Of a stretch of DNA of 64,000 nt, positions 2,368-57,461 are shown in pieces. Location: contig JBHLLT010000013.1 of NCBI GenBank assembly GCA_048938855.1, positions 21,150 to 85,149 of the forward strand, read 5' to 3'. The translations under genes and the position numbers were made by a program. Under the pieces are notes generated by a model that worked only from the letters and a program-made list of their open reading frames with translations, made no database searches and was not told the DNA's origin. Every line of letters starts with the position of its first letter. Positions within the stretch are counted from its first letter, which is position 1. The DNA is from Promethearchaeota archaeon. Its GTDB lineage: Archaea > Asgardarchaeota > Lokiarchaeia > Sigyniarchaeales > SOKP01.

Positions 2368-2470
2368 CAGGCCCGGGGGGATTTGAACCCCCGATCTTCG
2401 CCTTAGGAGGGCGCTGCAAAATATTGCTTGCAATATGCTAACAATCTTATCCAGTCTGGGCCACGGGCCT
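2368..2470 (-). tRNA. tRNA-Arg(CCT) with a 28-nt intron in the D-arm (position 23/24)
   Basis: Spliced sequence AGGCCCGTGGCCCAGACTGGATAAG^GCAGCGCCCTCCTAAGGCGAAGATCGGGGGTTCAAATCCCCCCGGGCCTG; acceptor AGGCCCG/CGGGCCT, T-arm GGGGG-TTCAAAT-CCCCC, anticodon loop CT-CCT-AA; no encoded CCA. Confidence 0.95.
2418..2445 (-). other. BHB intron in tRNA-Arg (non-canonical position 23/24)
   Basis: Exon helix CTG/CAG, central helix GATA/TATT, bulges AG^A and TT^G, intron helix TTGTT/AGCAA. Confidence 0.92.
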
Positions 2471-9597: not shown

Positions 9598-11253
9598 ATG
9601 TTAAGAAAACGTTATCAGCTGAATTGGATGTTTGAATGTCCTGATGCGGTATTAACATGTTCAGTATTGAAATGTAAGAATAATAATTTTTTAGTTTTTG
9701 GCGGACATGATAAAACTCTTTATTTAATGGATGAAAAGATGAATATCGTCGATGATAGAACTTTTGATGGCTGGTGTAGATGCAGTTATTCAATAGATCT
9801 TGACGGAGATGGATGCGATGAAGTATTAGTAGGTGCTGGTGATGGAAATTTCATGGTTTTAAAATTAAATGTTGACAAAAAGAAACTTGTGGGTATAATG
9901 CGATATAAATCTTCAAAGAGGATTAATTGTTGTACCGCTGGAGATTTTACAAGAGATCGGAATATTGAATTAATATTTGGAAGCAATGATAAAACTCTTA
10001 AAATTTTTAATGATATAAAGGCAAAAGAGCCTAAATTTGTGTTATATTACGATTCTTGGGTTACAGCTTGCACATTGGGTTTCTTAAAACTAGCAGATTA
10101 TGAAAATCCTATAAATGGATTATTAATTGGCACTAAAAATGGTATAGTTCAATTAGTTCAATTTCAAGATAATATGCTCGATATTGTATGGCAAAAAAAT
10201 TTTCATACACAGATAAATGATATTAAGGTTGGTGACGTTACGAATGATGGATTAAACGAAATCCTCCTAAGCACTGATGATTCATTTGTAAGAATTTTAA
10301 ATAGTGAAGGAGAATCCATTAAAGAAATTAGCACTGAAGAAGGGCGTCCAATTTCACTTTTAATAGAAGATATTGACGGTGATAATGCCAAGGAAATAGT
10401 AGCCGGATGCGCAGATGGCTCGTTAAAAGTGTTCCAGAATACATCTTTAGATTCACAAGAATTTGAGTTAAAATGGAAAACTAAAGTATCTACCTCTATT
10501 AAAAATGTATGTTATCTTACAGGAGATGATAAGAATATAAAGCAAATTGTATTTGGAGGATATGACCGTACAATTAGAAATATTACGGACTTTGAATGGG
10601 GTCAGAAACAATCACTAGAAATTCCTAGGAAAATTAAAGTTGATGAAATTAAAGAGAGCATAAAAAAAGATTTAGCTAGCGAAATTGCGAAAATAAAAGA
10701 AATTCCAACAAGTATGCGAGAGTATATTTTCAATTATTTTCAAGAACATGGATATTTAAAAGATATAATGGAAGAATTATTAAACCAAGGTTATTCTGAA
10801 GATGCAATCTTAGATGAATTCGCACTTCTAAAAACACAGAAATCAGTTGTTTACGAGAAAGTTACATATCCTGTATGGAGTTTACCTAGTGAAGAAATTG
10901 AGAAGGAAATGCCAAAAGAAGTTGAAGCCGAAGTCATCGTTGAAGAACAACTAAAACCCAAAGTACAACCACTAGTCATTGAAGAGACAGTCACCCCGAA
11001 AAAGGAAAAATTACGATCAGCTTTAGATAATGAACCTAAAGCAAAAGTTAGTACTGACGGTTCATTAGGAAATATTATTATTGAGTATTTAAAAGAAAAG
11101 AAATTAGTGGCAACTAAAACTCAGGTTATTGATGACATTAAAGAAAAAGGTTTTTCAAATACTGAAATCGATAAGGAAATAAATAATCTTAAGGAACAAG
11201 GCAAGATTCAATATTCTCGAGCAAAACCAAAAGGATGGAGTTTGGCTGAGTAA
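9598..11253 (+). CDS. WD40/FG-GAP-type beta-propeller with C-terminal winged helix
   Basis: Repeats DLDGDGCDEVLVGAGDG, GDFTRDRNIELIFGSNDKTLKIF, GDVTNDGLNEILLSTDD, EDIDGDNAKEIVAGCADGSLKVF; C-terminal IIEYLKEK..EIDKEINNLKEQGKIQY..GW. Confidence 0.8.
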   Translation: MLRKRYQLNWMFECPDAVLTCSVLKCKNNNFLVFGGHDKTLYLMDEKMNIVDDRTFDGWCRCSYSIDLDGDGCDEVLVGAGDGNFMVLKLNVDKKKLVGIMRYKSSKRINCCTAGDFTRDRNIELIFGSNDKTLKIFNDIKAKEPKFVLYYDSWVTACTLGFLKLADYENPINGLLIGTKNGIVQLVQFQDNMLDIVWQKNFHTQINDIKVGDVTNDGLNEILLSTDDSFVRILNSEGESIKEISTEEGRPISLLIEDIDGDNAKEIVAGCADGSLKVFQNTSLDSQEFELKWKTKVSTSIKNVCYLTGDDKNIKQIVFGGYDRTIRNITDFEWGQKQSLEIPRKIKVDEIKESIKKDLASEIAKIKEIPTSMREYIFNYFQEHGYLKDIMEELLNQGYSEDAILDEFALLKTQKSVVYEKVTYPVWSLPSEEIEKEMPKEVEAEVIVEEQLKPKVQPLVIEETVTPKKEKLRSALDNEPKAKVSTDGSLGNIIIEYLKEKKLVATKTQVIDDIKEKGFSNTEIDKEINNLKEQGKIQYSRAKPKGWSLAE

Positions 11254-12670: not shown

Positions 12671-13927
12671 TCAGATTAATTTTTTTCTTTTCCACTGTTT
12701 TAATTCGTCATTACTGTACCCTAATAATTTACAATAAATTTCTTCATTATGACATCCAAATTCTGGTCCAAAATCCTCAACAGAACCCTTTGTGTCTGAG
12801 AAGTTTATCAAGCGATTGGGTACTGTTGCTTTTTCAACACCCCATTTAGAAAAATCAAAATGATCAATTAACATTCCTCTCTCTCTAAGGTTGGGATGAT
12901 TGTGGACTTCATCTATTCTTAAAGTTTTGCCACACGGAATTCTTTCTGCTTCTAATTGTTTGATAGCATCCTCTCTAGACAAGTTCCTGCTCCAATTTTC
13001 AATGTATTCATCTAAAATCTCAATATAATCAAATCTTTTTATTATATTAGTAAATCGAGGATCTTTAACTAACTCCGGCTTTTTTAATACAACCTCACAA
13101 AGACGAATCCACTGTTTTTCAGTCAAAGTAGTCAATACAATTAATCCGTCCTTGCAATGGTATTGATTGTAGATGGGTAAGAATTTTGAAACTACATCGA
13201 TATCTTGAGCTCTTGGAATAAATTCTTTTGCTTGAGCTCTAATATTTATAGCGAACATGATATCATGCATCGAAATATCAATAAATTGTCCATTACCTGT
13301 TCTTTCACGATGATATAAAGCTTGGCTTATTCCAATTGCTGCAATATGACCTGCAGTATAATCTGCTATGGGTAATCTAGGTGGTCCTTCTTTAAAGCCT
13401 AAAGCATCAAGAATACCTGATTGGGCTTGAATAATTATATCAAATGCAGTTTTTTGAGTATATTGCTCTAATCCTTCGTTGCCATAACCTGATATTTTTG
13501 CGTATACTAATCTAGGATTAATTTCTTTCAACACTTTATATCCTAATCCCCATTTCTCCATTGTTCCTTTTACGAAATTTTCTACAAGAATATCAGTTTT
13601 TTCTACTAGTCTTTTAAAAATTGTTTTAGCTTCTTCTTTTCTTAAATCAAGGGAAATTGATTTCTTTCCTCTGTTTAATATCGAAAATAATGGAAAAATA
13701 GTTTTATCATAAAGCACAAATAAACGGAATGCTTCTCCAAAAGGGGGTGGTTATAGTATAAAATGCGAACCGCATTCATATTTCTACCTTTATTACTTCT
13801 GCCCCTTGGTCTGCAAAAAATGTACTTGCCCATGGACCCGAGATGAATTTTGTACCTTTGAAGCGAAACGCTCTTTTTCAAAGTGTGAACAATCAAGGAT
13901 CCTTAAACCATCAAATATTTTAGTCAT
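12671..13927 (-). CDS. Family III CoA-transferase (CaiB/BaiF), split by two putative BHB introns; join(13927..13885,13849..13782,13750..12671), 396 aa
   Basis: Spliced N-terminus MTKIFDGLRILDCSQFISGPWASTFFADQGAEVIKVEPPPFGEAFR joins in frame to ORF 12671..13717 (NRGKKSISLDL, DILVENF, ISGYG, catalytic PIADYTAG, GQFIDISM). Confidence 0.9.
13751..13781 (-). other. Putative mRNA BHB intron 2 (31 nt)
   Basis: ATATGAATGCGGTTCGCATTTTATACTATAA; central helix GTAG/CTAT (4 of 4), bulges AA^A and AA^C, intron helix TATG/TATA plus AATGCG/CGCATT. Confidence 0.85.
13850..13884 (-). other. Putative mRNA BHB intron 1 (35 nt)
   Basis: ACTTTGAAAAAGAGCGTTTCGCTTCAAAGGTACAA; central helix GTTC/GTAC (3 of 4 pairs), bulges AC^A and AA^A, intron helix CTTTGA/TCAAAG plus AGCG/CGCT, exon helix TGATT/ATTCA (4 of 5). 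Confidence 0.82.
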
Positions 13928-14128
13928 ATATCATCAAATTAAAAATTTTTAAAATATTTTTTTGAAAGAATCAACAATTTCCTTTATACGAAATAGACCT
14001 ATAGTTAATAACAATTCACTTTTGAAAAAATAAAACAATTTGTTGTTTCTAGTTAAATTGGATTTTCTCTGAAAATGTCAAGAAATAATTTATTATAAAA
14101 AAAAAAAAAATTTAGTTTCGAGTTCACA

Positions 14129-17100
14129 TTATGAAATTTGATTTATTATAATAGAGGCTTTAGTAATTAACAAATCTCCTTCTTCTTGAGAGATTATTTC
14201 ATTTTCGATGAAATCAAACACTTGATTAATGAATGCTTTAAGAATATTACTAGCTACATTGATTTGCATAGTCTGTATTTTTAAACTCGCTAAATCCAAT
14301 TTAATTGTTAAAGATTTTGCTTGACCTTTTCTTAAAATTCCTTCATTAAGCATTTCGGTTATATCGTCTCTCAGATTGAGAACTCTCTGTATAGGGTTAT
14401 CACCTTCACTAGTTCGTGGATATGGATCTTCATTTAAAGCAAAACCATCAATAGAATATGGAAAATCAACAATACCTATTGGATCTTCTACATCGGGGCT
14501 AACCCAATCACTCCAGTAATTATATTCAAATACATTACTAAATCCATTATCAGAAGCTTGACAACTTCCTTGATTGTTTTCAATGATATCGTTCCATTTA
14601 ATCAAGTTTTCACTAGACATGTAACCAATATAAATCCCATACTCTCCACTATTAAGAATTTTATTGTGGATAATACTATTGTGATCCGATTCATCGTTTA
14701 GTCCTATTCCCTCAGCATAACTGTTATTAATCTCATTCCAAGTTAAATTATTATAATTTGAATGCTCATAAAGAATTATTCCAGAATCACAATCAAAAAT
14801 ATGGTTTTTTGAGACATTATTGTTGTCGGAGGAATGGAGACCAATCCCTTCCAATTGATTATTGTAAATAATATTGTCTACGATCTCATTATCAACAGAT
14901 CCATCCCAAAGTACAATACCATGAAAATTGTTAATGATGACATTATTTTCAATAATTCCGTTTTTGACATTTTCTAATTTAATACCTTCCCATTCCTGTG
15001 TGATACCATTTAGTTTACACTTGGATATGATGAAATATGCTGATGTATCTTTGATATGGATTAAATTCCCGTAATCAGCAGTAATGTAATAACTTTCAAT
15101 AAGATAAGGGTCACCTTCCTCTCCACTCCCCGGGAACTCATAATCTTCAAAATCATCATCATCATCAATATATATTGGTTCTTCCAGAGAACGAACAGAT
15201 ATGGTGGGCTCACCGGTTTCTGGGTCCTCTGATTCCTCTATAATTGTAACCATCTGATCTGTTTGACCTTCTTCTAAAGGAACGTCCTCAACAGACCGTT
15301 CAAATAATATTACCCCTTCTGCACTGGAGAAATAGTTCATAGAATAAGTTGTTTCTTCCGTTGCGGTTATTTCATAACTGTAAGTTCCAAATATAGGATC
15401 TTTAGGATTGATTGCTATAAGGATCATTACACTGTCTTCTCCCTCCTCCCAGTCTTCGTTTTCTATATAGAATGCATTTAAGCCAATTTGATTTTCGTGT
15501 ACGTTAATTATTCGCCCATAAGGATCCTCAGCCTGGAAAAGTATAGGAGAACCTCCACGCCCTGTCATCCACCAATCGGCGTACGGAAGTGGTCCATAAT
15601 TCTCTGGAATTGAAGGATCTAAAAGGGGTGCATCATCTACACCTTCATGTGGTAGATCAGTGTCACCAATATAATCTCCATCTAAATCTTCTCCCCAGTA
15701 ATTACTCCAGAAGTTCCCTACATCGTTAATCGGGTCCACCCATACATTTAAACCAGCCAAAATTTGATAATAATTATTGATCAAAAGATTTCGGTAAATA
15801 TAATTTGAACTACCATTAGCAAAAATACCCCACCACGTATTTCTAGCAACAATATTATTGGTTACTTCATTCAGTGTTGAGGAAAGTATAATACCTATTT
15901 TATTATCCGATATATAATTAACTGTAATATTATTATGGTCGCCATCATAAATTGAAATTCCTGTATGAAAATTTTGAATTGTAAGATTTTTTATTGTAAC
16001 TGAGTAATGATTAATGCTCAAAACTCCACTTCCATTGCCGCTACCTATAATTTTGTGTCCATTGCCATTAATCGTGATTCCATCTGCCCCTATTATAAGC
16101 CCATTTCCTTCCTCAAAATACATATCTGAAGTTAGTGTATAATCAGTGGTGATTAGTTGATTCTCATGTTCATAATAAACAGAATAAAACCATACTTTAT
16201 CCATAGGATTAGATTGAAAGCCATTGAATTCATTATTATAAGCATCATAATTTCGTGGTACACAGAGCCATACATAGGGCATTGAATCCTCAACAAGATA
16301 TTCTTGGATCTTATCATAAATTTTTTTTCTAGCAATATGATCAATAGTATTTAGCCCTTCTGTTATTAGTTGTTCAAGATAAGCATCGTCTACTTGACCA
16401 AAGTTAGAAAATGAATCTTTACCGAATAAATAATATAAATAATCGCTTGGATCGTTGTAATCCTGACCCCATCCTAAAAATGTAATGTCTATCTTTCTCC
16501 TTTCAATAAATAATCTCCTAGAATATTCTTCCCAATCTACGTCTTCAAGGATTATTTTTATTCCAATTTTTGTTAGATTATTCTGTAATGTGACCCCTAA
16601 CTCTTCTTTTCGTATACTTCCTATATTATAGGTATAATTATATGTTAGAAACGTTGCTGCTTCCCATTGTGCTTCATTTATACCGGGAAAAGTTGGATCT
16701 AATCCAAGACCATAACCTGCAGCTTGCATTGCTTTCCTGGCTTCGGTGTAATTTAGTTCTGGAAATTTCAATGTTGAATTTGCATATAAAATCCCATCAG
16801 GAACAGGTGATTTTAACCTTGAATAGTGGCCCTCTAATAGATCATTAATTATATAATTATAGTCAATTGCATATGATATAGCTCTTCTACTATATGGATC
16901 TGATATTTTTGTATTATTCATTGTAAAGAAATAAGTTATTGTAGTATTCCCACCATCTACAAATGTAATACCTGTATCTCCTTTAAGATCTTCAATCCGA
17001 GAAGTATCAATGTCATTAATAAAATCAACATTACCATCTAATAGTGATTGCGTAGCATCTGGAGTGATAGAAAACGTTAATTCATCTATATTAGCAGGAC

Positions 17101-17836
17101 CATCCCAATAATTTTCATATTTGTGAAAACTCACTTCATTACCCACATATAAGTCATAGATAAAAGGACCTGTTCCAACTAAATCTCCTGTCATCAGATC
17201 AATATAATCTTCTCCGGGAGTTGAGTCAGGAGACATAATTCCTGATCCGCTAAAACATAAGAGAGCTTCAAATGGAGCAAAAATTCTATTTAATTTAAAT
17301 TCTATTTCATATTCGTTGAGGATGTTTGTCGAGTTGATTACAGGTTTTCCATCAGGCCATTCGTACAATGTAGAAAATATACATCTCCGAGTTTCATGAG
17401 GTAAAGTACCAGATACATTCATGAAATAAGCTAATCTTTTAAAGTTCCACCAAACAGCTGATGCATTGAATTCAGATCCATCATGAAACTTGATGCCCTG
17501 TCTAAGTGAGATTGTGTATGTTAATCCCCCCGAAGACCATATACCGAAATCTTTAGCGAGCCTAGGGATAATTTTATTTTCAGAATCAGATAAATTGTAA
17601 GCAAAAAGCGTTTCAACAACCTGATCGATAACATCAATAGAAGCACTATCCCATGCATCATGAGGATCCAAAGTTACTGGACCATTCCTTGTACCATATT
17701 TTAGTGTTATAGGTGGCTCAGAAGTCTTAAGGAATTCAAGTTCTTCTATTTTATTATCCAGTCTTGTCGGATTATAAATAAATATACCAAAAATAATGAT
17801 AAAAAGAATACAAATTGAAATTCGTTTAGTTTTCAT
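14129..17836 (-). CDS. Family 5 ABC substrate-binding protein fused to two parallel beta-helix (NosD/CASH-like) modules and a FIMAH-like C-terminal bundle
   Basis: Probable start ATG 17836 (MKTKRISICILFIIIFGIF signal/anchor); TLDP..VETL, FHDGSEFNA, GTGPF, RRAISYAID; N/I-rich beta-helix repeats, GNFWSNY and YNYWSDW. Confidence 0.85.
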   Translation of the reverse strand: MKTKRISICILFIIIFGIFIYNPTRLDNKIEELEFLKTSEPPITLKYGTRNGPVTLDPHDAWDSASIDVIDQVVETLFAYNLSDSENKIIPRLAKDFGIWSSGGLTYTISLRQGIKFHDGSEFNASAVWWNFKRLAYFMNVSGTLPHETRRCIFSTLYEWPDGKPVINSTNILNEYEIEFKLNRIFAPFEALLCFSGSGIMSPDSTPGEDYIDLMTGDLVGTGPFIYDLYVGNEVSFHKYENYWDGPANIDELTFSITPDATQSLLDGNVDFINDIDTSRIEDLKGDTGITFVDGGNTTITYFFTMNNTKISDPYSRRAISYAIDYNYIINDLLEGHYSRLKSPVPDGILYANSTLKFPELNYTEARKAMQAAGYGLGLDPTFPGINEAQWEAATFLTYNYTYNIGSIRKEELGVTLQNNLTKIGIKIILEDVDWEEYSRRLFIERRKIDITFLGWGQDYNDPSDYLYYLFGKDSFSNFGQVDDAYLEQLITEGLNTIDHIARKKIYDKIQEYLVEDSMPYVWLCVPRNYDAYNNEFNGFQSNPMDKVWFYSVYYEHENQLITTDYTLTSDMYFEEGNGLIIGADGITINGNGHKIIGSGNGSGVLSINHYSVTIKNLTIQNFHTGISIYDGDHNNITVNYISDNKIGIILSSTLNEVTNNIVARNTWWGIFANGSSNYIYRNLLINNYYQILAGLNVWVDPINDVGNFWSNYWGEDLDGDYIGDTDLPHEGVDDAPLLDPSIPENYGPLPYADWWMTGRGGSPILFQAEDPYGRIINVHENQIGLNAFYIENEDWEEGEDSVMILIAINPKDPIFGTYSYEITATEETTYSMNYFSSAEGVILFERSVEDVPLEEGQTDQMVTIIEESEDPETGEPTISVRSLEEPIYIDDDDDFEDYEFPGSGEEGDPYLIESYYITADYGNLIHIKDTSAYFIISKCKLNGITQEWEGIKLENVKNGIIENNVIINNFHGIVLWDGSVDNEIVDNIIYNNQLEGIGLHSSDNNNVSKNHIFDCDSGIILYEHSNYNNLTWNEINNSYAEGIGLNDESDHNSIIHNKILNSGEYGIYIGYMSSENLIKWNDIIENNQGSCQASDNGFSNVFEYNYWSDWVSPDVEDPIGIVDFPYSIDGFALNEDPYPRTSEGDNPIQRVLNLRDDITEMLNEGILRKGQAKSLTIKLDLASLKIQTMQINVASNILKAFINQVFDFIENEIISQEEGDLLITKASIIINQIS

Positions 17837-18100
17837 TTGTCTAAACCCAATTTTCTTTTCTAATTTATTAGGATTTCCACCCAAAACTAAGGTTTTTGGA
17901 ACTAATTAATTAATTTTGGATTACCGAATGATTATGATATTTGGAATGTTAATAAAGTTATTGTTTTTTTTGACAAATCTGTTAAGTCAAAACTAAATTT
18001 CAAACAAAGTTCAATACCTGAATTTTGTTTTCTAAAAAAAATATTATAAGAAAATTATTCTTCTTTTTATTCAACATTAAATTATCTAGAATTTAATCCA

Positions 18101-56840: not shown

Positions 56841-57362
56841 ATGGAGCAAAAAATAGAGCAAGATATTATTTCTAAATTTGATAAAGCTATTGAGAAACTT
56901 GAAGAGGAATTACCAAATGAAATGCCCAGTGGATGTGCAGAAGCAACAATGAGGCAAATTTTAAATATATTAGGAATGGAGGAAACATTGATAAATAACA
57001 TTATGATCCCCTTATCAGGGGGATTAGGGGGCTATAAATCCGAAGAGGGGTGGTTTGGACCTTGTGGAGCAGTAGTTGGAGGTTGTGGGGCCATTGGTGC
57101 AATTTTAGCGGGTAAAGAAAAGATGGATCAAAGTAAAGTGCTTCCTGCTTATTTAAAATCGGCACAATTCGCAAAAGAATTCGAGAAGGAGTTCGGTTCA
57201 GTAGTTTGCCCAAATTTATCAGGATATGATTTTAGTGATCCTAATAATATTATGAAATACTTAGAAGAAGGAGTCTGGGGGAAAAAATGCTATAAATATG
57301 TTTTATGGGCAATTGATAACGTAAGAAAACTTATGAAAAAAGAATTAAAGAAGAATTGGTAA
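56841..57362 (+). CDS. C-GCAxxG-C-C family putative redox protein
   Basis: GCAEA, GPCGAVVG, FGSVVC, KCYKYV. Confidence 0.85.
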   Translation: MEQKIEQDIISKFDKAIEKLEEELPNEMPSGCAEATMRQILNILGMEETLINNIMIPLSGGLGGYKSEEGWFGPCGAVVGGCGAIGAILAGKEKMDQSKVLPAYLKSAQFAKEFEKEFGSVVCPNLSGYDFSDPNNIMKYLEEGVWGKKCYKYVLWAIDNVRKLMKKELKKNW

Positions 57363-57428
57363 GACTATTATAGTAATTTCAAATAATTTATTTTTTTATT
57401 TTACTTTAAATTTCATTCTTAATTGGAT

Positions 57429-57461
57429 GTTCCATGGATTTATCGGAACGTCAATTATAAA
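57429..57461 (+). promoter_or_regulatory. Operator GTTCC-N11-GGAAC plus TATA box
   Basis: GTTCCATGGATTTATCGGAAC..TTATAAA. Confidence 0.7.

What the first reader, a model, noticed from the sequence alone, without database searches (positions are those of the whole stretch)
12671..13927. Protein-coding gene interrupted by two tRNA-type (bulge-helix-bulge) introns: candidate mRNA splicing in an Asgard archaeon
Seen: the CoA-transferase III ORF in the track lacks its N-terminus. The missing part lies upstream, broken by a 35-nt (13884..13850) and a 31-nt (13781..13751) insertion. Both fold as BHB motifs: a 4-nt central helix between two 3-nt bulges, closed by an intron hairpin. Cutting after the second nucleotide of each bulge (the EndA rule) gives TCA C^AA TTC and GTA GAA^CCA, producing LDCSQFISGPWAS..ADQGAEVIKVEPP, the CaiB/BaiF consensus, in one 396-aa frame with the catalytic Asp intact. 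The unspliced RNA stops after 44 codons, and removing only intron 1 runs into a TGA inside intron 2, so both must be removed. Established: archaeal EndA/RtcB splice BHB introns in tRNA and rRNA; the classic mRNA example is crenarchaeal cbf5. Inference: this is a multi-intron metabolic mRNA in the lineage closest to eukaryotes, which pipelines would mis-call as a pseudogene; splicing could be regulatory.
Basis: partly seen in the sequence, partly recalled or inferred. Interest (0 to 1): 0.95.

Follow-up and report, generated by a model that had tools for sequence, protein, structure and literature searches.

The report
Two tRNA-type introns in Asgard mRNA
A metabolic enzyme gene of an uncultured Asgard (Lokiarchaeia) archaeon is broken by two inserts of about 30 bases that have the shape, position and evolutionary signature of introns cut out by the tRNA-splicing enzymes, a kind of splicing that the papers I could search document for only one archaeal coding gene, although no spliced transcript has yet been seen here.

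Summary
Observation confirmed. Removing 13884-13850 (35 nt) and 13781-13751 (31 nt) gives a 396-aa family III CoA-transferase, the same length as intron-less orthologs. An independent assembly carries both inserts. Of 50 parsed orthologs, 12 have both inserts, 19 only the second, 2 only the first and 17 neither, always at the same two sites. Insert sequences diverge, yet the central helix pairs 3.8-3.9 of 4 only in the EndA cutting register, with compensatory exon/intron changes. Carriers show dN/dS 0.05-0.10, so they are not pseudogenes. The genome encodes a two-subunit EndA and RtcB. Caveats: the motifs are relaxed and mostly not the minimum-energy fold, no RNA evidence exists, and a regulatory role is unsupported. 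Additions here: a C-NNNUC-G loop is shared by seven mRNA inserts in five genes of this genome and predicted a new one (LOR gene, confirmed in relatives), and the intron-bearing 5' block appears to be exchanged between lineages by recombination. This scan already reported the same class of intron on other Lokiarchaeia DNA, including intron 2 in other genomes. Verdict: new variant of archaeal BHB mRNA introns, about 88% real.

The parts
13947..13954 (-). TATA-like box (TTTTAAAA) about 20-27 nt upstream of the ATG; suggests a leaderless transcript (inference)
   Evidence: sequence; same element upstream of several orthologs such as L002, L004, L009, L017, L022
13885..13927 (-). Exon 1 (43 nt, codons 1-14 plus first base of Gln15)
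13897..13902 (-). 5' strand (GGATCC) of a distal exon-exon helix that pairs with 13834-13839
   Evidence: consensus fold; exon duplex -11.7 kcal/mol in carriers against -5.7 in non-carriers
13887..13890 (-). Exonic strand of central helix 1 (GTTC), pairs with intronic GTAC at 13852-13855
   Evidence: GTTC/GTAC here against GCTC/GRGY in other carriers
13850..13884 (-). Intron 1 (35 nt, phase 1 inside Gln15), relaxed BHB, inner hairpin
   Evidence: 14 carriers, 32-56 nt, central helix 3.86 of 4 in register
13864..13870 (-). C-GUUUC-G loop of intron 1 (shared C-NNNUC-G motif)
13782..13849 (-). Exon 2 (68 nt, QFISGPW...GAEVIKVE)
13784..13787 (-). Exonic strand of central helix 2 (GTAG), pairs with intronic CTAT at 13753-13756
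   Evidence: GTAG in 29 of 31 carriers against 5 of 19 non-carriers; GTGG/CCAT compensatory pair in L064
13751..13781 (-). Intron 2 (31 nt, phase 0 between Glu37 and Pro38), BHB/BHL-like, contains TGA
   Evidence: 31 carriers, 30-31 nt, 7 inner pairs with changes on both sides
13766..13772 (-). C-GGUUC-G loop of intron 2 (shared C-NNNUC-G motif)
12671..13750 (-). Exon 3 (1080 nt with stop); contains the mis-called 348-aa ORF from 13717
13361..13363 (-). Codon of the conserved Asp167 (PIADY), the catalytic Asp position of family III CoA-transferases
   Evidence: invariant in 27 orthologs; aligns with an Asp in solved formyl-CoA transferase relatives

Best explanation
The gene is a functional family III CoA-transferase whose pre-mRNA carries two short archaeal-type introns. 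The 5' end of the probably leaderless transcript folds into two relaxed bulge-helix-bulge motifs, each built half from exon and half from intron and supported by distal exon-exon helices. The two-subunit tRNA splicing endonuclease cuts after the second base of each bulge, RtcB joins the exons, and the 396-aa enzyme is translated. Shown: anatomy, exact boundaries, covariation, purifying selection, presence of the enzymes. Inferred from established archaeal splicing chemistry: cleavage and ligation in vivo. The introns are tolerated passengers rather than required regulators, belong to a small genome-wide set sharing a C-NNNUC-G loop, and move in and out of lineages when the 5' block of about 120-150 nt is exchanged by homologous recombination (inferred, about 65%).
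For: Inserts at the same two nucleotide positions in 33 of 50 orthologs, removal restoring 391-397-aa frames in full-length carriers except L022. Central helix 3.86 and 3.84 of 4 pairs in the EndA register against at most 2.21 and 2.65 in shifted registers. Among equivalent junction placements only the EndA one pairs well. Intron 2 structure: 88.9% of cells paired against 30.7-49.9% for slid controls, covariation 0.268 against at most 0.093, 7 pairs changed on both sides. Compensatory exon/intron changes GTTC/GTAC and GTGG/CCAT. dN/dS median 0.079 between carriers, 0.081 between intron-less genes. All 45 inserts break the frame or hold a stop. Two EndA paralogues, one with the catalytic Tyr/His/Lys and one lacking the His, plus RtcB. 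Same architecture in the essential gene rpl11 and in rnhB, AMP phosphorylase and a LOR gene of this genome. 5' block mosaicism.
Against: No transcript or peptide evidence, and no 396-aa product among the 4 members of this protein's cluster. The BHB is the dominant predicted fold in only a few carriers. Intron 1 here has a central mismatch, and 5 intron-2 carriers have 3 of 4 pairs. One carrier (L022) has a further 1-nt frameshift. A motif-free genome scan could not tell BHB geometry from decoys. Orthologs are related, so counts overstate independence.
Confidence: 0.88

Rival explanations
1. Ribosomal bypassing or recoding: the ribosome hops over the hairpins in an unspliced mRNA, as in T4 gene 60.
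For: For insert 1, a TTT/TTC (Phe) take-off and landing pair exists in this genome, and a synonymous pair in 10 of 14 carriers; it would give LDCSHFISGPW. His at this position occurs in a solved relative. Both inserts hold hairpins and most hold stops.
Against: Insert 2 has no identical take-off/landing codon in any of 31 carriers (synonymous in 8), and both gaps must be passed. Bypassing does not explain the exon-intron central helix conserved in the EndA register with compensatory changes.
Confidence: 0.04
2. The inserts inactivate the gene (pseudogene), or only the truncated 348-aa ORF is made.
For: Annotation calls a 348-aa protein. L022 carries an additional frameshift.
Against: dN/dS 0.05-0.10, including exons 1-2 (dN 0.02-0.16 at dS 0.3-2.5). 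Asp167 invariant. The truncated ORF lacks Pfam positions 1-53, part of the N-terminal fold aligned with solved enzymes. The inserts themselves are structurally conserved over saturated synonymous distances.
Confidence: 0.03
3. The inserts are removed by a mechanism other than EndA/RtcB: DNA-level excision of a mini mobile element, or an unknown RNA enzyme that recognises the C-NNNUC-G loop.
For: Relaxed BHBs that are rarely the minimum-energy fold. The shared loop is not part of the known BHB definition and was not found in the tRNA regions scanned. Patchy distribution.
Against: No target-site duplication: junction repeats are 0-2 nt. Boundaries obey the EndA rule in all carriers. Independent assemblies give only the insert-containing DNA. 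Relaxed motifs are normal for cbf5 introns and two-subunit EndA (PMC2738675).
Confidence: 0.04
4. Assembly artefact.
For: The genome is a metagenome-assembled draft with 7% contamination.
Against: Identical sequence in a Logan assembly and an NCBI record. Homologous but different inserts at the same sites in more than 30 records from different projects.
Confidence: 0.01

Closest known systems
cbf5 pre-mRNA intron of Crenarchaeota (Watanabe 2002; Yoshinari 2006; Yokobori 2009, PMC2738675)
   Same: Short intron inside a conserved coding motif, relaxed BHB, cut after the second bulge base, host with hetero-oligomeric EndA, gain and loss among relatives.
   Different: Here two introns in one mRNA, a metabolic gene unrelated to RNA modification, an Asgard lineage, independent presence/absence within one genus, a shared loop across several genes. 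cbf5 splicing has cDNA support, this has none.
BHB intron in the 5' UTR of Haloferax volcanii HVO_1309 (Schwarz 2020, PMC7714728)
   Same: EndA substrate in an mRNA.
   Different: That intron is outside the coding sequence; here removal is needed to build the reading frame. That paper names cbf5 as the only other case.
Non-canonical BHB introns of Asgard tRNA genes (bioRxiv 10.64898/2026.10.13.758758; PMC11291895)
   Same: Short inserts at BHB boundaries, frequent gain and loss, two-subunit EndA, none yet shown spliced in an Asgard cell per the preprint.
   Different: Those are in tRNAs, mainly of Jordiarchaeia and Atabeyarchaeia; the preprint has no mention of mRNA and finds almost no shared intron families, whereas these mRNA introns share a loop motif across genes.
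Family III CoA-transferases (CaiB/BaiF, PF02515)
   Same: Full Pfam match and conserved Asp after splicing; best solved relatives are formyl-CoA transferase and YfdE.
   Different: Substrate unknown; the best structural relatives are distant (E about 1e-50).

Membership tests
Archaeal BHB (EndA-spliced) intron | 4-bp central helix formed by exon end and intron end, two bases from each cut | tested here: met
   3.86 and 3.84 of 4 pairs in register against at most 2.65 shifted. This genome: 3 of 4 and 4 of 4.
Archaeal BHB (EndA-spliced) intron | Inner (intron) helix closing the 5' bulge | tested here: met
   3 of 3 closing pairs for both introns here. Inner hairpin more stable than shuffled in 31 of 31 and 10 of 14 carriers; covariation.
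Archaeal BHB (EndA-spliced) intron | Outer (exon-exon) helix closing the 3' bulge, giving the canonical symmetric BHB | tested here: inconclusive
   Intron 1: 4 of 5 pairs. Intron 2: one invariant G-C pair, then a loop and a distal helix. Fits the relaxed BHL class, not the canonical form.
Archaeal BHB (EndA-spliced) intron | Motif is a favoured fold of the precursor | tested here: inconclusive
   Central pair probabilities mostly below 0.3; above 0.8 only in L020 (intron 1) and L017 (intron 2). The consensus fold recovers central helix 1 only roughly.
Archaeal BHB (EndA-spliced) intron | Removal at the predicted sites restores the functional RNA or reading frame | tested here: met
   396 aa, collinear with intron-less orthologs.
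Archaeal BHB (EndA-spliced) intron | Host encodes EndA able to take relaxed motifs, and an RNA ligase | tested here: met
   [quoted passage not shown] Substrate range itself not measured.
Archaeal BHB (EndA-spliced) intron | Spliced RNA and circular intron detected; EndA cleavage shown | not testable with these tools
   No read-level RNA data or biochemistry available.
Mobile element (IS/MITE) insertion | Target-site duplication and multiple copies | tested here: not met
   Junction repeats 0-2 nt; no second copy within 7 substitutions in the genome.
Translational bypassing element | Matched take-off and landing codons at each gap | tested here: not met
   0 of 31 identical for insert 2; 2 of 14 identical and 10 of 14 synonymous for insert 1.
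Group I / group II self-splicing intron | Ribozyme core of hundreds of bases | tested here: not met
   Inserts are 30-56 nt.
Family III CoA-transferase | PF02515 over full length with the catalytic Asp | tested here: met

The most novel reading that the evidence does not exclude
This Lokiarchaeia genus has a dispersed, actively turning-over family of spliced mRNA mini-introns, several per genome and up to two per gene, marked by a C-NNNUC-G loop and passed between lineages by recombination of short gene blocks without any homing endonuclease: a protein-spliced mRNA intron system in Asgard archaea.
Probability: 0.55. Interest if true: 0.92.

Novelty: new variant of a known kind. Interest (0 to 1): 0.82.

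Why it matters
In the papers I could search, archaeal splicing inside a coding sequence is documented only for cbf5. A two-intron metabolic mRNA in an Asgard genus, with more such introns in rpl11, rnhB, AMP phosphorylase and a LOR gene of the same genome, would show that routine mRNA splicing by protein enzymes exists in the archaeal group from which eukaryotes arose. It is chemically unrelated to spliceosomal splicing, so it is a parallel, not an ancestor. It also means Lokiarchaeia gene catalogues hold systematically truncated proteins. Close relatives that differ in single introns make intron gain, loss and lateral spread directly testable, which the recent Asgard tRNA-intron preprint names as the open problem.

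Tried and rejected
Motif-free genome-wide BHB scan: real geometry gave 237 loci against 191-216 for decoy geometries, so it is uninformative (a first version timed out). A first motif scan missed the two known introns because of its ORF filters. A narrow loop motif returned only the two introns of this gene. The wider C-NNNUC-G scan ranks true introns at the top, but its tail is no better than decoy motifs, so I cannot give a genome-wide count. Single-sequence folding does not favour the BHB. Bypassing, target-site duplication, pseudogene and artefact were tested and rejected. The apparent inserts in L026 (62 nt) and L060 (1 nt) are parsing errors. No third intron site was found in the orthologs aligned. 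The sigma-70 promoter scan is not suited to archaea and was not used. A pair count on alignment A3 failed on a mistyped structure and was not repeated. PMC3064391 was not held. Nine literature searches found no report of Asgard mRNA BHB introns; most subscription papers are not searched.

Full report
Observation. The minus strand from 13927 to 12671 is 1257 nt. Removing 13884-13850 (35 nt) and 13781-13751 (31 nt) leaves exons of 43, 68 and 1080 nt that read as 396 codons plus stop, beginning MTKIFDGLRILDCSQFISGPW. Unspliced, the frame stops after 44 codons; with only insert 1 removed it stops at a TGA in insert 2. The called 348-aa ORF matches PF02515 only from model position 54, while an intron-less ortholog matches from position 2. 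Public collections hold the truncated protein and a 22-aa fragment. A Logan assembly and an NCBI record agree with the window over 1290 nt with no mismatch, so the inserts are not an artefact. Related records are titled mostly Promethearchaeota or Promethearchaeia archaeon.

Comparative anatomy. Orthologs from the same genus, GTDB genomes and metagenomes gave 50 parsed distinct genes: 12 with both inserts, 19 with only the second, 2 with only the first and 17 with none. Seven further genes were intron-less by alignment, and no third site appeared. Eight more distant orthologs outside the genus have none. Inserts are 32-56 nt at site 1 and 30-31 nt at site 2, and all 45 break the frame or contain a stop. 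Placing the cuts by the EndA rule gives a central helix of 3.86 and 3.84 pairs of 4, against at most 2.21 and 2.65 in any shifted register. Exon and intron change together: GTTC/GTAC here against GCTC/GRGY elsewhere, and GTGG/CCAT in L064 against GTAG/CTAT. The exonic 4-mer at site 2 is GTAG in 29 of 31 carriers but 5 of 19 non-carriers. For intron 2, 88.9% of cells pair against 30.7-49.9% in slid controls, with 7 pairs changed on both sides; relatedness inflates such counts. A distal exon-exon duplex is stronger in carriers (site 1: -11.7 against -5.7 kcal/mol; site 2: -11.9 against -9.5) and appears in the consensus fold.

Limits of the structural case. The motifs are relaxed. Intron 1 has a U-U mismatch, intron 2 has a single adjacent outer pair, and the BHB is rarely the minimum-energy fold. 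BHB geometry alone is no more frequent than decoys in the genome. The evidence is therefore comparative, not thermodynamic. Relaxed motifs are typical of cbf5 introns and are cut by hetero-oligomeric EndA (PMC2738675).

The gene is alive. dN/dS to this gene is 0.05-0.10 in all pairs where it could be computed; the median is 0.079 among carriers and 0.081 among intron-less genes, and Asp167 is invariant. One carrier, L022, has a 1-nt deletion in an A-run that may be an error or a real lesion. The genome encodes two EndA paralogues and RtcB. One paralogue has the Tyr, His and Lys of the catalytic site and the other lacks the His, consistent with the two-subunit type reported for most Asgard genomes (bioRxiv 10.64898/2026.10.13.758758).

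A wider family. Earlier notes of this scan pointed to inserts in rpl11, rnhB and AMP phosphorylase of the same genome. I found them in the sequence; the second rpl11 insert has a weaker BHB. All four, and both introns here, carry a C-NNNUC-G loop. A scan on that loop ranked first a new 30-nt insert in a LOR-family gene. Relatives confirm it: 6 parsed carriers and 13 intron-less genes at the exact site, though only 3 of the 6 keep the exact loop. The loop is thus common but not obligatory (12 of 14 and 24 of 31 carriers here match the narrower form). It was not found in the tRNA regions scanned. Its role is unexplained. I could not confirm the count of ten to twenty-five introns per genome given in another note.

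History. On a tree of the 3' part of the gene, intron 1 needs 11 changes and intron 2 needs 15 among 48 genes. The 5' block follows intron status rather than the rest of the gene: the nearest neighbour shares status in 39 of 48 cases for the first 135 nt but 23 of 48 for the 3' part. L056 (none) and L087 (both) differ at 26 of 135 sites in the 5' block but 60 of 1053 elsewhere (p 6e-7). This gene shares 16 against 2 informative 5' sites with a distant carrier rather than its intron-less sister, and the ratio reverses in the 3' part. Structural constraint on exons explains part of this, and chimeric assembly is not fully excluded, but lateral exchange of the block is the simplest reading.

Mechanism. 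Most likely the pre-mRNA folds two relaxed BHB motifs, EndA cuts each bulge after its second base, and RtcB ligates, yielding the full enzyme. Anatomy, selection and enzyme presence are shown; cleavage and ligation are inferred. Bypassing fails for intron 2 (0 of 31 matched codons) though a Phe pair makes it formally possible for intron 1; DNA excision lacks target duplications. A regulatory role is possible but unsupported, since close relatives do without the introns.

Comparison and novelty. The closest known case is the cbf5 intron; a 2020 study names it as the only other mRNA case besides a Haloferax 5' UTR intron (PMC7714728), and the 2009 paper notes that introns in other protein genes had only been predicted. 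Papers on Asgard introns treat tRNAs only. This works like, and by the testable features belongs to, the relaxed BHB intron class; the defining experiment is missing. The scan has reported this class before on other Lokiarchaeia DNA, including intron 2 in other genomes; those notes are not independent support. Verdict: new variant of a known kind, 0.88 real, interest 0.82.

Noticed in passing
G000:C6:135329-135358 (minus; L103, L106-L129): New 30-nt BHB insert in a zinc-ribbon/LOR-family gene (KEKYWD^WGSG), found by the loop motif; present in 6 and absent in 13 parsed relatives at the exact site, central helix TGGG/CYCR.
   Followed up: yes
G000:C49 about 57350-57460 (minus; L104): rpl11 has a 37-nt insert with a perfect TGGG/CCCA central helix and a 36-nt insert with a weaker motif; the second has a hairpin core nearly identical to CoA-transferase intron 1 of L020.
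   Followed up: partly
G000:C81:88136-88165 (plus; L105) and G000:C74:52176-52205 (minus): 30-nt stop-containing inserts in the RNase HII DEAGRG motif and the AMP phosphorylase HSTGG motif, both with the C-NNNUC-G loop; rnhB and rpl11 are uninterrupted in the other-family genomes where they were found.
   Followed up: partly
window 2368-2470 (minus): tRNA gene with a D-arm intron whose hairpin loop (C-AUAUU-G) resembles the mRNA intron loop; ARAGORN missed it in the window scan and mis-typed it in the genome scan.
   Followed up: partly
L101:1311-1366: A 56-nt version of intron 1 with perfect central and inner helices, showing that intron length can grow.
   Followed up: no
L022 (G030:C102), about codon 111: Two-intron ortholog with a 1-nt deletion in an A-run causing a frameshift; error or pseudogenisation not resolved.
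   Followed up: partly
L047, L055 against L051, L053, L059: Two distant 3' lineages share a T-rich subtype of intron 2 and similar 5' exons, another sign of block exchange.
   Followed up: partly
window 9598-11253 (plus): 551-aa beta-propeller protein with BBS7/BBS2-like and FG-GAP Pfam hits and a C-terminal winged-helix-like hit; a possible eukaryote-like protein.
   Followed up: no
window 14129-17884 (minus): 1251-aa fusion of a family 5 solute-binding domain with NosD/beta-helix repeats directly upstream of the gene; upstream neighbours differ among orthologs.
   Followed up: no
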